Part shown: one piece after another, positions 11,504 to 12,400 of the stretch
Numbering within the stretch: the stretch's first letter is position 1
How the letters are laid out: each line of letters opens with the position of its first letter
DNA from: a virus
Taxonomy: Duplodnaviria; Caudoviricetes
DNA: 64,000 nt
Direction: 5' to 3' (one strand)
IMG/VR virus record: IMGVR_UViG_3300020048_000009
Location: 128,001 to 192,000 of that record
Notes under the pieces: model-generated
Told to the model about the DNA's origin: nothing
What the model saw: the letters and a program-made list of their open reading frames with translations, nothing else
Databases searched by the model: none
Program-made: the position numbers and the translations under genes

Positions 11504-11515
11504 TAATAAATAAAA
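11504..11515 (+). promoter_or_regulatory. Late-promoter-like motif TAATAAATAAAA heading the amber operon
   Basis: Same motif precedes the neck gene and many other genes; resembles T4 late TATAAATA. Confidence 0.65.
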
Positions 11516-11540
11516 TAGAATATTCATAAGGAGAAAATAA

Positions 11541-11585
11541 ATGAATAACGATAAAGTTAAATGTTAGGTGCTTAAACCACCATAA
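11541..11585 (+). CDS. Leader peptide (uORF) MNNDKVKC[TAG]VLKPP* with internal amber codon
   Basis: AAGGAG SD at 11528-11533, ATG 11541, TAG 11565-11567, TAA 11583-11585. Confidence 0.7.
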
Positions 11586-11645
11586 TCCTATTAGTGTTGA
11601 AAAATGACTGATTAATGTAAAAAACAAACAAACTAATAAGGATTA
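11583..11645 (+). promoter_or_regulatory. SD-sequestering hairpin upstream of ORF 11651
   Basis: TAATCCTATTAGT (11583-11595) pairs with ACTAATAAGGATTA (11632-11645), 13 bp with one bulge; the 3' arm contains AAGGA. Confidence 0.7.
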
Positions 11646-11650
11646 TAAAA

Positions 11651-11953
11651 ATGAGAAAAATAGACGAATTAAAGTTAAAGAATAAAGAAACAAGTAAACA
11701 ACTTAGAGAAAGAAATCTCAAGTTAAAAGAGAACCAGAAGCAAGGTAAATGTTGTAGTAATGAAATGTGTTCATTGTATTATGCTAGAAAAGAATATAGA
11801 CATTATCACATTGCCTATTGTGAGTTAAGAGGTAGAACTAGGGATCAGATTGAAAAACCTAGACGTGGTAATGAAGTAAACGAACAGCTTATTCAAAATA
11901 TTAAAAATGAATATGCATGGGAAATTCTCGATACTGGAGCAAACAATGAATAA
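11651..11953 (+). CDS. Basic 100-aa protein of unknown function, coupled to the Pth2-like gene
   Basis: YRHYHIAYCELRGRTRDQIE motif; stop overlaps the next ATG (ATGAATAA). Confidence 0.75.
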   Translation: MRKIDELKLKNKETSKQLRERNLKLKENQKQGKCCSNEMCSLYYARKEYRHYHIAYCELRGRTRDQIEKPRRGNEVNEQLIQNIKNEYAWEILDTGANNE

Positions 11954-12242
11954 ATTATATGTTTTAGTGAGAAAAGATTTATCTACATCTTATCAAGCGG
12001 TTCAAGCTGGTCATGCTGTGGCGGAATGGTTACTTCAAAACCATTAGGGTTCCGAATGGAAAAATAATACATTAATATATTTAGGTGTAAAAGATTTAGA
12101 TGATCTTAATCACTGGATGGAAAAACTTAAATATAAAAATATAGAATTTTCAGCATTTAAAGAACCTGATATTGGAAATGAAATAACAGCAATCGCATGT
12201 TTAAATGATGGTAAATTATTTTCCAGTCTTAGATTATTATAA
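11946..12242 (+). CDS. Pth2-like peptidyl-tRNA hydrolase with in-frame TAG at codon 34 (not in ORF track)
   Basis: MNKLYVLVRKDLSTSYQAVQAGHAVAEWLLQNH[TAG]GSEWKNNTLIYLGV...FKEPDIGNEITAIAC...LRLL*; GGAG SD at 11936-11939; TAG 12045-12047. Confidence 0.85.
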
Positions 12243-12245
12243 AAC

Positions 12246-12322
12246 GGCACTATAGCTCAGTGGTTAGAGCGGGAATCTCTAAAATTCTGTCCGCATGGGT
12301 TCGAATCCCATTAGAGCCGCCA
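12246..12322 (+). tRNA. Amber suppressor tRNA, anticodon CUA
   Basis: GGCACTA/TAGAGCC acceptor stem (A4:A69 mismatch), GCTC/GAGC D-arm, GGAAT-CT CTA AA-ATTCT anticodon arm, ATGGG-TTCGAAT-CCCAT T-arm, G73, encoded CCA. Confidence 0.9.
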
Positions 12323-12366
12323 AATTTATATAAGTTCCACTCCAGTGGAAAAAGTTAAACAAAAAG

Positions 12367-12400
12367 AAAAAGTTAAGGTATATTTTACCTTAACTTTTTT
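12367..12400. terminator. Bidirectional intrinsic terminator closing the amber operon
   Basis: AAAAAGTTAAGGTA-TATTT-TACCTTAACTTTTTT; a small TTCCAC-TCCA-GTGGAA hairpin lies just upstream (~12335-12350). Confidence 0.8.

What the first reader, a model, noticed from the sequence alone, without database searches (positions are those of the whole stretch)
11504..12400. Self-contained amber (UAG)-gated operon: amber uORF + SD hairpin -> unknown gene -> amber-containing Pth2-like gene -> its own tRNA(CUA)
Seen, in one ~900-bp unit: late-type motif (11504), uORF with internal TAG, SD-occluding hairpin, 100-aa gene, translationally coupled Pth2-like gene with in-frame TAG, an amber tRNA 3 nt after its stop, then a terminator. 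These are the only internal TAGs I found in otherwise standard-code genes, and both sit next to the tRNA that can decode them. Established: stop-codon-recoded phages carry suppressor tRNAs, but there TAG is spread over many genes. Inference: a dedicated circuit that senses the suppressor/RF1 balance and switches on peptidyl-tRNA recycling (plus the unknown protein) late in infection, only when UAG is read through. I am not aware of a description of this arrangement.
Basis: partly seen in the sequence, partly recalled or inferred. Interest (0 to 1): 0.95.

Follow-up and report, generated by a model that had tools for sequence, protein, structure and literature searches.

The report
Stop-codon-readthrough sensor guarding suppressor tRNA
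A large phage carries a compact operon whose leader appears to sense whether the UAG stop codon is being read through by the operon's own suppressor tRNA; the same design recurs in roughly a hundred related phage loci, giving "orphan" phage suppressor tRNAs a natural target and a likely control circuit.

Summary
None is chance or a sequencing error. An independent lake metagenome keeps both TAGs.

I compared 199 dereplicated loci that encode the PTH2-like protein.
- 109 of the 112 tRNAs lying within 150 nt downstream of it are stop-codon suppressors (105 CUA).
- 24 loci keep an in-frame TAG in the same loop, codons 33-36. The part after the TAG is under purifying selection (dN/dS about 0.1).
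- About 90-100 loci have a leader of the form "mini-ORF, TAG, [I/V]xx..Pro-Pro-stop or R-G/S-P-P".
- The Pro-Pro codons lie in frame with the TAG and sit on the 5' arm of a hairpin that hides the Shine-Dalgarno of the next gene.
- The leader's in-frame stop covaries with the neighbouring tRNA's anticodon: TAG with CUA, TGA with UCA, TAA with UUA.

Best reading, entirely computational: a translational ON-switch that senses read-through and drives a 100-aa helical protein plus a PTH2-fold esterase. These two are sometimes fused into one protein. What the two proteins do is unknown.

This genome otherwise uses the standard code. "Late" timing is unproven.

I found no published description. Earlier AI notes of this scan report similar cassettes on other DNA.

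The parts
11504..11512 (+). TAATAAATA promoter-like motif upstream of the leader
   Evidence: Read from the sequence. The overlapping 8-mers AATAAATA, ATAAATAA and TAAATAAA occur upstream of 45-51 of 340 crude genes against about 7-9 expected. TAATAAATA lies within 80 nt upstream of 29 genes. Timing and the polymerase used are unknown.
11528..11533 (+). Shine-Dalgarno (AAGGAG) of the leader ORF, 7 nt before its ATG
   Evidence: Read from the sequence.
11541..11585 (+). Leader ORF MNNDKVKC-UAG-VLKPP-UAA. Amber codon at 11565-11567, Pro-Pro at 11577-11582, final stop at 11583-11585.
   Evidence: Relatives have the same design: L004 MT*ILKPP*, L006 MK*VLKPP*, L030 ML*VKKPP* and others. Pattern enrichment, frame test, +4 purine in 95 of 102 leaders.
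11582..11646 (+). SD-sequestering hairpin. The 5' arm (11582-11598) starts at the last base of the second Pro codon and includes the UAA. The 3' arm (11627-11646) includes the SD of the 100-aa gene.
   Evidence: MFE fold of the leader and duplex energy of -14.1 kcal/mol. The same arrangement appears in 72 of 99 leaders. Matched arms pair better than mismatched ones, -11.2 against -6.2 kcal/mol, p=9e-14. Geometry.
11651..11953 (+). 100-aa basic protein of an unnamed family. Motif YRHxHIAYCxLRGRxxxQIE; helical hairpin plus two short helices.
   Evidence: ORF. No Pfam, PHROG or NCBIfam match. Conserved directly upstream of the PTH2-like gene. AF2 pLDDT 91. 1,924 clusters at 50% identity. Natural fusions to the PTH2-like domain.
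11946..12242 (+). PTH2-fold gene (98 codons) with an in-frame UAG at codon 34 (12045-12047). Its ATG overlaps the end of the 100-aa gene by 8 nt.
   Evidence: AF2 pLDDT 93.7 with codon 34 in loop 33-42. Foldseek matches Pth2 structures 2zv3, 1q7s, 3erj and 1xty at TM about 0.8. 24 loci carry TAG at codons 33-36. dN/dS after the TAG is 0.07-0.10.
12246..12322 (+). tRNA with anticodon CUA (amber suppressor). Loop CU-CUA-AA, G73, CCA encoded, A4.A69 mismatch.
   Evidence: ARAGORN. Rfam RF00005 scores 61.2 bits. It is the only tRNA outside the 24-tRNA cluster of the genome.
12366..12400 (+). Intrinsic terminator closing the unit
   Evidence: 15-bp stem followed by a T run.

Best explanation
The unit is a suppression-sensing translational switch built into a suppressor-tRNA operon.

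One transcript carries a leader, a 100-aa helical protein, a PTH2-fold esterase and tRNA(CUA).

OFF state: ribosomes translating the leader meet UAG after 8 codons. If release factor wins, they terminate about 15 nt short of a hairpin that hides the Shine-Dalgarno of the 100-aa gene. The genes then stay off.

ON state: if tRNA(CUA) decodes the UAG, the ribosome goes on five codons to Pro-Pro-UAA. This is a context known to slow termination; in relatives the motif is R-G/S-P-P, a known elongation-arrest motif. The ribosome then sits on the 5' arm of the hairpin, the SD is freed, and the 100-aa gene is translated. The overlapping PTH2-like gene follows by coupling.

Second gate: the in-frame UAG in a permissive loop of the PTH2-like gene makes the full-length enzyme depend on suppression a second time.

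What is shown by sequence comparison: the anatomy, its conservation, the selection on it, and the stop/anticodon covariation.

What is inferred: stalling, SD unmasking, and what the output does.

My guess for the output: the two proteins act as one enzyme on ester-linked (aminoacyl- or peptidyl-) tRNA. This would either recycle the suppressor (positive loop) or limit it (governor). The evidence does not decide between these.
For: Anatomy.

Specific link between the PTH2-like gene and suppressor tRNAs: 112 loci have a tRNA within 150 nt downstream. In 105 it is CUA, in 3 UCA, in 1 UUA, and in only 3 another kind. The median gap is 10.5 nt.

Leader:
- The strict pattern (TAG then Pro-Pro) occurs in 92 of 175 upstream regions, against 3 of 175 on the reverse complement and 11 of 875 shuffles.
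- The first CCNCC after a TAG-ended mini-ORF is in frame 0 in 136 of 158 cases.
- 68 of 102 leaders end directly after the motif, mostly 5-7 codons after the TAG.
- The base after the TAG is a purine in 95 of 102.

Hairpin:
- The SD pairs with the motif region in 72 of 99 MFE folds. Duplex energy is -8.9 against -3.9 kcal/mol for controls, p=5e-16.
- Matched arms give -11.2 against -6.2 kcal/mol for mismatched arms, p=9e-14.
- The helix starts a median of 18 nt (IQR 14-21) after the T of TAG and 0 nt from the last Pro codon.

Covariation of the leader stop with the anticodon: CUA loci have TAG in 88 and another stop in 3. UCA and UUA loci have TAG in 0 and the matching TGA or TAA in 10. Fisher p=1.5e-11, though this rests on only about 3-4 independent lineages.

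The PTH2 amber is read:
- 24 loci have TAG at codons 33-36.
- dN/dS downstream is 0.07-0.10 at dS 0.6-1.9.
- Both TAGs are kept in an independent sample.

Known arrest motifs:
- C-terminal Pro-Pro impairs termination (PMC3834316).
- RAPP and RGPP give robust arrest (PMC10951233, PMC12992588).

The two proteins act together: conserved adjacency or overlap, and natural fusions P0147, P0251 and P0269.
Against: - No experiment or expression data. It is not known whether the tRNA is made, charged, or with which amino acid. Discriminator bases vary among the tRNAs.
- About 45 of 140 CUA loci lack the leader motif as I defined it. In 27 of 99 leaders the MFE fold does not pair the SD with the motif region.
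- The stop/anticodon covariation rests on few non-CUA lineages.
- TAG ends about 9% of this phage's own genes, so strong suppression has a cost.
- The canonical Pth2 GK lysine is not conserved, so esterase activity is unproven.
- The complex prediction gave no verdict.
- Short nascent chains of 8-14 aa may stall less well than the tested arrest peptides.
Confidence: 0.68

Rival explanations
1. The leader is an arrest or attenuation device that reads something other than the suppressor tRNA. Candidates are release-factor-1 availability, EF-P or proline supply, or peptidyl-tRNA drop-off from the 2-4 codon mini-ORF (as with lambda bar minigenes). The tRNA would merely be a passenger.
For: The pre-TAG peptide is mostly 2 or 4 residues, which resembles minigenes that load Pth (my own knowledge of lambda bar minigenes, not checked here). 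Pro-Pro stalling depends on EF-P and RF in E. coli (PMC3834316). In L029, an RF-1-domain (GGQ) ORF runs straight into the leader.
Against: The leader's in-frame stop changes to TGA or TAA exactly where the neighbouring tRNA is UCA or UUA. Pro-Pro is kept in frame with the TAG, which only matters if the TAG is decoded. The RF1/tRNA balance is in any case the same measured quantity seen from the other side.
Confidence: 0.12
2. The point of the switch is the tRNA, not the proteins. Translation of the two ORFs protects the transcript from Rho-dependent termination or decay. Suppression would then raise synthesis of its own tRNA, giving a positive, bistable code-switch loop. The proteins would be secondary.
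For: The tRNA lies 1-40 nt after the PTH2-like stop with no room for a promoter. The unit ends in one terminator. The module also occurs in loci that look TAG-recoded.
Against: Both proteins are strongly conserved and under purifying selection. In Lak loci and some others the tRNA lies upstream or up to 2 kb away. Polarity is untested.
Confidence: 0.1
3. This is ordinary genome-wide TAG recoding (code 15). TAG would simply be a sense codon in this phage, so nothing is gated.
For: The closest database homologues were translated with TAG=Q. Many related loci gain ORF coverage when TAG is read as sense.
Against: In this genome code 11 gives 91% coding. TAG ends about 32 of 340 crude genes, with short in-frame extensions. 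The only internal TAG in a recognisable domain is the PTH2 one. Loci with the PTH2 amber have high code-11 coverage, 0.81 to 0.85.
Confidence: 0.04
4. The PTH2-like gene is a pseudogene or carries a sequencing error, and the uORF is a chance ORF.
For: There is a single in-frame stop, and the uORF is tiny.
Against: An independent sample keeps both TAGs. 24 loci share the amber position and have dN/dS of about 0.1 downstream. The leader pattern is enriched 30- to 40-fold over controls.
Confidence: 0.01

Closest known systems
Ribosome-arrest leader peptides that unmask a downstream Shine-Dalgarno (ErmCL/ermC; SecM/secA; RAPP/RGPP peptides ApdA and ApdP)
   Same: A short upstream ORF with its own SD. 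A C-terminal Pro-rich arrest motif (Pro-Pro-stop, R-G/S-P-P). The stall site lies on the 5' arm of a hairpin that sequesters the SD of the next gene (PMC10951233, PMC12992588, PMC3834316).
   Different: The ribosome can reach the arrest site only by reading through an in-frame stop codon. The sensed signal is therefore nonsense suppression, not an antibiotic, secretion activity or a metabolite. The nascent chains are very short (7-14 residues).
prfB (RF2) autoregulation through an in-frame UGA
   Same: An in-frame stop codon inside a translation-factor-like gene makes its synthesis depend on how that same stop codon is being decoded.
   Different: Here the alternative to termination is decoding by a dedicated tRNA, not a +1 frameshift. 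The sign of the feedback is unknown. A separate leader sensor is present as well.
Phage stop-codon recoding with suppressor tRNAs (code 15 or code 4 phages; the 'code change module' of Jade phages)
   Same: A phage-encoded suppressor tRNA. The module is itself mostly written in standard code. There is a proposed link to temporal control (bioRxiv 10.1101/2021.08.26.457843).
   Different: This genome is not recoded. The partners are a PTH2-fold protein and a 100-aa protein, not an aaRS or RF. A read-through-sensing leader has not been described there.
PTH2 genes of jumbo phages, interpreted as ribosome-rescue or RNA-repair accessories (PMC7824862)
   Same: The same protein family and the same neighbourhood of RNA-repair genes (Thg1, RNA ligases, RtcB).
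   Different: That survey does not mention linkage to suppressor tRNAs, the in-frame amber or the leader.
AMD1 C-tail in eukaryotes: read-through ribosomes pause at a second in-frame stop (PMC13025110, abstract only)
   Same: Read-through of a first stop delivers ribosomes to a downstream in-frame stall site with a regulatory effect.
   Different: It is eukaryotic, involves no suppressor tRNA and no SD hairpin, and the effect there is on the upstream ORF.

Membership tests
Peptidyl-tRNA hydrolase PTH2 (PF01981) | Sequence match above the curated threshold | tested here: met
   25.2 bits against a cut-off of 23, E=2e-5, covering profile positions 2-81 of 115. The six-frame genome search gives 22.8-23.3 bits. 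The match is marginal. NCBIfam Pth2 scores 15.8 bits against a cut-off of 126, so that test is not met.
Peptidyl-tRNA hydrolase PTH2 (PF01981) | PTH2 alpha/beta fold | tested here: met
   AF2 model with pLDDT 93.7. Foldseek matches 2zv3, 1q7s, 3erj and 1xty with probability 1.00 and TM 0.77-0.81.
Peptidyl-tRNA hydrolase PTH2 (PF01981) | Conserved active-site residues: the Lys of the GK motif and the Asp of the DAG motif. Their catalytic roles are recalled from memory of the S. solfataricus Pth2 work and were not checked here. | tested here: inconclusive
   In the profile alignment to 2zv3 and 24bt, the GK lysine aligns with Tyr16 (Y or Q across the family). The Gln and His of the AQxxHA motif (Q20, H23) are invariant. 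An invariant acidic residue (E73, with D75 two residues on) aligns with the DAG Asp.
Peptidyl-tRNA hydrolase PTH2 (PF01981) | Hydrolysis of the peptidyl-tRNA ester bond | not testable with these tools
Amber suppressor tRNA | Canonical cloverleaf with anticodon CUA | tested here: met
   ARAGORN, 77 nt, loop CU-CUA-AA. Rfam tRNA scores 61.2 bits against a gathering score of 29. There is one A4.A69 mismatch.
Amber suppressor tRNA | Decodes UAG in vivo | tested here: inconclusive
   Indirect only. There is purifying selection downstream of the conserved amber, and the leader stop covaries with the anticodon. No expression or charging data exist, and the amino acid is unknown.
Ribosome-arrest leader / translational attenuation | Short ORF with its own SD and a C-terminal arrest motif | tested here: met
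   SD AAGGAG lies 7 nt before the ATG, and the leader ends in Pro-Pro-UAA. The motifs are known from PMC3834316 and PMC12992588.
Ribosome-arrest leader / translational attenuation | The stall site overlaps one arm of a structure that sequesters the downstream SD | tested here: met
   These are predicted structures with co-evolving arms; there is no chemical probing.
Ribosome-arrest leader / translational attenuation | Demonstrated ribosome stalling and induction | not testable with these tools
   This needs toeprinting and reporter assays.
Code-15 (TAG to Gln) recoded phage | TAG in frame in many genes, and coding density restored only when TAG is read as sense | tested here: not met
   91% coding under code 11, TAG used as a stop in about 32 of 340 crude genes, and one domain-internal TAG.

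The most novel reading that the evidence does not exclude
A widespread, previously undescribed class of self-monitoring 'recoding cassettes' exists in large phages. A leader peptide measures the decoding activity of a noncanonical tRNA (amber, opal or ochre; earlier notes of this scan add four-base decoders). It switches on a dedicated two-part tRNA-ester hydrolase that tunes that tRNA. The cassette would then be the control device for suppressor tRNAs in standard-code phages and for the code switch in recoded phages.
Probability: 0.35. Interest if true: 0.95.

Novelty: new variant of a known kind. Interest (0 to 1): 0.86.

Why it matters
Phage suppressor tRNAs in genomes that use the standard code have had no known targets. 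The XacN1 authors say this explicitly (PMC5852040). For recoded phages, how the switch of genetic code is timed and kept from harming the phage is an open question (bioRxiv 10.1101/2021.08.26.457843).

This module supplies two things. One is a natural, conserved target for the tRNA. The other is a plausible sensor that reports read-through efficiency directly on the ribosome.

The module is about 900 bp, self-contained and portable. The hypothesis can therefore be tested with simple reporters in E. coli.

If it works as read, it would be a new input type for arrest-peptide attenuators: nonsense suppression. It would also offer a ready-made part for measuring or regulating stop-codon suppression in genetic-code-expansion work. 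Finally, it points to an uncharacterised 100-aa protein family of about 1,900 clusters that works with a PTH2-fold enzyme.

Tried and rejected
- Complex prediction of the 100-aa protein with the PTH2-like protein (P0004 residues 12-109, 96% identical to the window's protein) gave no verdict, score 0.00. This is not evidence either way.
- Fold searches for the 100-aa protein (PDB Foldseek, VIA wide, AFDB clusters, ESM Atlas) found only generic helical hairpins, including the seryl-tRNA synthetase arm and SSV1 D-63. All were below meaningful scores.
- Inferring the amino-acid identity of tRNA(CUA) by similarity to typed phage tRNAs gave only short T-loop matches. Discriminator bases vary. The 'Q' at codon 34 in database homologues is only the database's TAG=Q translation and is not evidence for Gln.
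- Yersinia phage fHe-Yen9-04 has the most similar tRNA-Sup but no PTH2-like gene upstream. No cultured phage in INPHARED has the 100-aa gene.
- The sigma-70 promoter scan was no better than shuffles.
- A Gp23 search meant to place the phage found nothing and is uninformative. No RF-1 domain was found in this record.
I rebuilt the alignments without those rows.
- I did not attempt column-wise covariation (RNAalifold or R-scape style) on the hairpin, because arm register and loop length differ too much. I used matched-versus-mismatched arm energies instead.
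Full report
**What is there**

The window is bases 128001-192000 of a single 211,678-bp contig with 29.8% G+C. It is an IMG/VR virus record, linear, with CheckV completeness of 84%. It comes from aquatic or lake-water metagenomes.

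The record has 25 tRNA genes. Twenty-four form a cluster at 83-93 kb. The twenty-fifth, with anticodon CUA, stands alone at window 12246-12322.

Under code 11 a crude gene set covers 91% of the genome. TAG ends about 32 of 340 crude genes, mostly with a back-up stop a few codons later. This phage therefore uses the standard code.

**The unit, read from the sequence**

All coordinates are unless stated.
- TAATAAATA at 11504-12.
- SD AAGGAG at 11528-33.
- Leader ORF from 11541: ATG AAT AAC GAT AAA GTT AAA TGT TAG GTG CTT AAA CCA CCA TAA, ending at 11585.
- A hairpin whose 5' arm (11582-98) begins at the last base of the second Pro codon. Its 3' arm (11627-46) contains the SD of the next gene.
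- A 100-aa ORF at 11651-11953.
- A 98-codon PTH2-like ORF at 11946-12242. It overlaps the 100-aa ORF by 8 nt and has TAG at codon 34 (12045-47).
- tRNA(CUA), starting 3 nt after the TAA.
- A terminator at 12366-12400.

**Is it real?**

A contig from an independent lake-water metagenome of a different study covers 11450-12264. It differs by 5 substitutions and 2 single-base indels.
- Both TAGs are unchanged.
- The four coding substitutions are all synonymous. Two lie in the 100-aa gene and two lie downstream of the amber in the PTH2-like gene.
- Both indels fall in the loop of the hairpin.

**The gene pair and the tRNA are a conserved module**

Searches of IMG/VR and JGI metagenomes with the PTH2-like protein gave 199 dereplicated loci.

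In 112 of them a tRNA gene lies within 150 nt downstream of the PTH2-like stop.
- 105 have anticodon CUA, 3 UCA and 1 UUA. Only 3 are ordinary tRNAs.
- The median gap is 10.5 nt.
- A further 54 loci have a CUA tRNA elsewhere within 2.5 kb.

A homologue of the 100-aa protein sits directly upstream of the PTH2-like gene in nearly all loci, usually overlapping it. Lak megaphages have a divergent form.

The 100-aa family has 1,924 clusters at 50% identity. It has no Pfam, PHROG or NCBIfam name.

Three cluster representatives (P0147, P0251, P0269; 185-197 aa) are single polypeptides. Their N-terminal half is the 100-aa family and their C-terminal half is the PTH2-like domain. BLASTP of the C-terminal halves to the window's protein gives E=5e-28 and 7e-23. 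This argues that the two proteins work together.

**The amber inside the PTH2-like gene is conserved and read through**

Twenty-four loci, down to 46% protein identity, carry a TAG at codons 33-36. It always lies 1-5 residues before the invariant Trp38. In the AF2 model this is the loop after helix 1, residues 33-42.

For five pairs of such genes, the part downstream of the TAG has dN/dS of 0.07-0.10 at dS 0.6-1.9. It keeps all family-invariant residues.

On a protein tree the character needs at least 12 changes, against 22.7 for shuffled labels. It is therefore clustered but evolutionarily labile.

Loci with the amber have high ORF coverage under code 11, so they are not TAG-recoded genomes.

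Four loci show a different thing. There TGA replaces the invariant Trp38 itself, so TGA means Trp in those phages.

**The leader is a conserved device**

- Pattern. "Start, up to 30 codons, a stop, 1-14 codons, Pro-Pro" occurs with TAG as the stop in 92 of 175 upstream regions. It occurs in 3 of 175 reverse complements and 11 of 875 shuffles. With TGA or TAA as the stop it is almost absent, although those stops are commoner in the controls.
- Shape. In 102 TAG leaders the pre-TAG peptide is mostly 2 or 4 residues. The first codon after the TAG is Ile or Val in 81. The base after the TAG is a purine in 95; T occurs once. From my own knowledge of classical context effects, a 3' purine favours amber suppression. 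I did not check this in papers.
- End of the leader. In 68 leaders the motif is followed at once by a stop, mostly 5-7 codons after the TAG. The remaining 34 have further codons after the motif, typically after R-G-P-P or R-S-P.
- Known motifs. C-terminal Pro-Pro is reported to interfere with termination "in all genetic contexts tested" (PMC3834316). RAPP and RGPP are reported as robust, EF-P-refractory arrest motifs (PMC10951233, PMC12992588).
- Frame. The CCNCC that encodes Pro-Pro is also the anti-SD. It is in frame with the TAG in 136 of 158 cases, against one third expected. Coding for Pro-Pro after read-through is therefore itself selected.

**The hairpin**

- In 72 of 99 leaders the MFE fold pairs at least 4 nt of the SD region with the segment at or just after the motif. 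Duplex energy is -8.9 against -3.9 kcal/mol for control windows, p=5e-16.
- Each locus's 5' arm pairs much better with its own SD region than with those of other loci: -11.2 against -6.2 kcal/mol, better in 76 of 85, p=9e-14. The two arms therefore co-evolve beyond a generic SD/anti-SD match.
- In 67 leaders the helix begins a median of 18 nt (IQR 14-21) after the T of TAG and 0 nt (IQR -4 to +3) from the last Pro codon.

A ribosome encloses roughly 12-14 nt of mRNA 3' of the first A-site base (established toeprint geometry, from my own knowledge). A ribosome terminating at the TAG would leave the helix intact. One held at Pro-Pro would open its 5' arm.

**Covariation with the tRNA**

- Loci whose only suppressor tRNA is CUA have TAG leaders in 88 cases and TGA or TAA leaders in 3.
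- The three UCA loci have MIMKRI-TGA-TRN[KR]GPDN-type leaders.
- Seven of eight UUA loci have TAA leaders. These are Lak phages and one unrelated metagenome locus. Examples are MKLQHW-TAA-VTCDRGP-TAA and ...-TAA-VTLSRGSP.
- Fisher p=1.5e-11.
- The non-CUA cases represent only about three or four lineages, so the p-value overstates independence. The direction is nevertheless exactly what a read-through sensor predicts.

**What the proteins are**

The PTH2-like protein has the Pth2 fold. It is a divergent family.
- The lysine of the canonical GK motif aligns with Tyr or Gln.
- The Gln and His of the AQxxHA motif are invariant.
- An acidic residue at the DAG position is invariant.

The 100-aa protein is predicted with high confidence (pLDDT 91). 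It forms a basic antiparallel helical hairpin with two short helices and invariant Arg50, His53, Ile67 and Glu68. No fold match rises above what helical hairpins give by chance.

The wider region of the window encodes tRNA and RNA repair functions: a nucleotidyltransferase, a Thg1-like enzyme, two RNA ligases and RtcB. The gene after the terminator is a virion structural protein family.

**How it most likely works**

The sensor logic is described under Best explanation, and I put it at about two in three.
- Shown by comparison: the parts, their selection and their covariation.
- Inferred: stalling, SD release and translational coupling.

The second amber inside the enzyme gene would make the full-length enzyme rise roughly with the square of suppression efficiency.

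The role of the output is open. It could be a hydrolase that frees the suppressor from dropped-off peptidyl-tRNA, a positive loop. It could instead strip its ester to cap suppression, a governor loop analogous in logic to prfB. I cannot separate these.

"Late" timing is not established. The TAATAAATA motif does recur upstream of about 29-50 genes, but its class is unknown.

**Known or new**

PTH2 genes in jumbo phages are known and have been read as ribosome-rescue accessories (PMC7824862, PMC3622015). Suppressor tRNAs in standard-code jumbo phages are known but without targets (PMC5852040, PMC9022506 abstract). Recoded phages are proposed to use suppressor tRNAs as a temporal switch (bioRxiv 10.1101/2021.08.26.457843).

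In six full-text searches and the papers read, I found no description of any of the following:
- the PTH2/suppressor-tRNA linkage;
- the conserved amber;
- the read-through-sensing leader.

The mechanism class, an arrest-peptide attenuator, is known. The input and the cassette are not.

Earlier notes of this same scan report similar amber-gated PTH2/tRNA cassettes in other genomes, and four-base-codon versions. They are AI notes, not publications. One later check there rated the bold reading at only 20 in 100, on the grounds that nothing is experimental and that suppression should be costly. That caution applies here too. The leader statistics, arm co-evolution, stop/anticodon covariation, fusions and independent-sample check reported above are my own tests.

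Noticed in passing
P0147, P0251, P0269: These are natural single-chain fusions of the 100-aa family with the PTH2-like domain, 185-197 aa long. This is Rosetta-stone evidence that the two proteins act together.
   Followed up: partly
L029:1727-2150: An RF-1-domain (GGQ, ArfB-like) ORF ends ...Q-M-T-TAG and continues in frame into a tandem leader, MT-TAG-IQIPP-TAG-IRGPP-TGA. That leader precedes the 100-aa/PTH2-like pair, so a second kind of peptidyl-tRNA hydrolase is attached to the same sensor.
   Followed up: partly
L001, L002, L071, L074-L080 (Lak phages); L180: The leader's in-frame stop is TAA, and the neighbouring tRNA has anticodon UUA and lies upstream of the leader. Lak phages are reported as TAG-recoded, so an ochre-type tRNA and a TAA sensor there are unexpected.
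   Followed up: partly
L139, L141, L142, L093: TGA replaces the invariant Trp38 of the PTH2-like protein. Three of these loci also carry a tRNA(UCA) about 890 nt upstream and a tRNA(CUA) 12-29 nt downstream, so they have two suppressor types in one locus.
   Followed up: partly
G000:C1:68780-69373 (outside the window): A 135-aa ORF ends in TAG-GTG and continues in frame for 61 codons with a positive coding score and no obvious SD. It may be a second read-through target of the tRNA.
   Followed up: partly
window 6166-7236, 10352-11134, 19015-20169, 25587-26765, 28331-29521: A cluster of tRNA and RNA repair genes surrounds the module: a nucleotidyltransferase, a Thg1-like guanylyltransferase, two RNA ligases and RtcB.
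   Followed up: no
window 12246-12322: The tRNA(CUA) has an A4.A69 mismatch in the acceptor stem, an encoded CCA and G73. Across 137 related CUA tRNAs the loop is CU-CUA-AA in 83, but the discriminator base varies (A, U or G). The amino-acid identity is therefore probably not uniform.
   Followed up: partly
L009-L045 and others, junction of the two genes: In many loci the 100-aa ORF runs 26-41 nt into the PTH2-like gene. Its seemingly conserved tail (E-T-L-C/R-x-S-A) is just the out-of-frame reading of the conserved KLYVLVRK start of the PTH2-like protein.
   Followed up: no
L069, L082: ARAGORN reports tRNA-like genes with 4-nt ('gtta') or 2-nt ('tc') anticodons near PTH2-like genes. This fits earlier scan notes about four-base decoders next to this gene family.
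   Followed up: no
window 11567-11581: A small 4-bp hairpin (GGUG...CACC) could form between the amber codon and the Pro-Pro codons in the MFE fold. I did not test whether it is conserved.
   Followed up: no
L234-L251 (genome contigs): Only 18 of about 185,000 species genomes have a relative. All are MAG contigs with scattered taxonomic labels, several of them single contigs of 360-430 kb. These are probably huge phages binned as cells.
   Followed up: no
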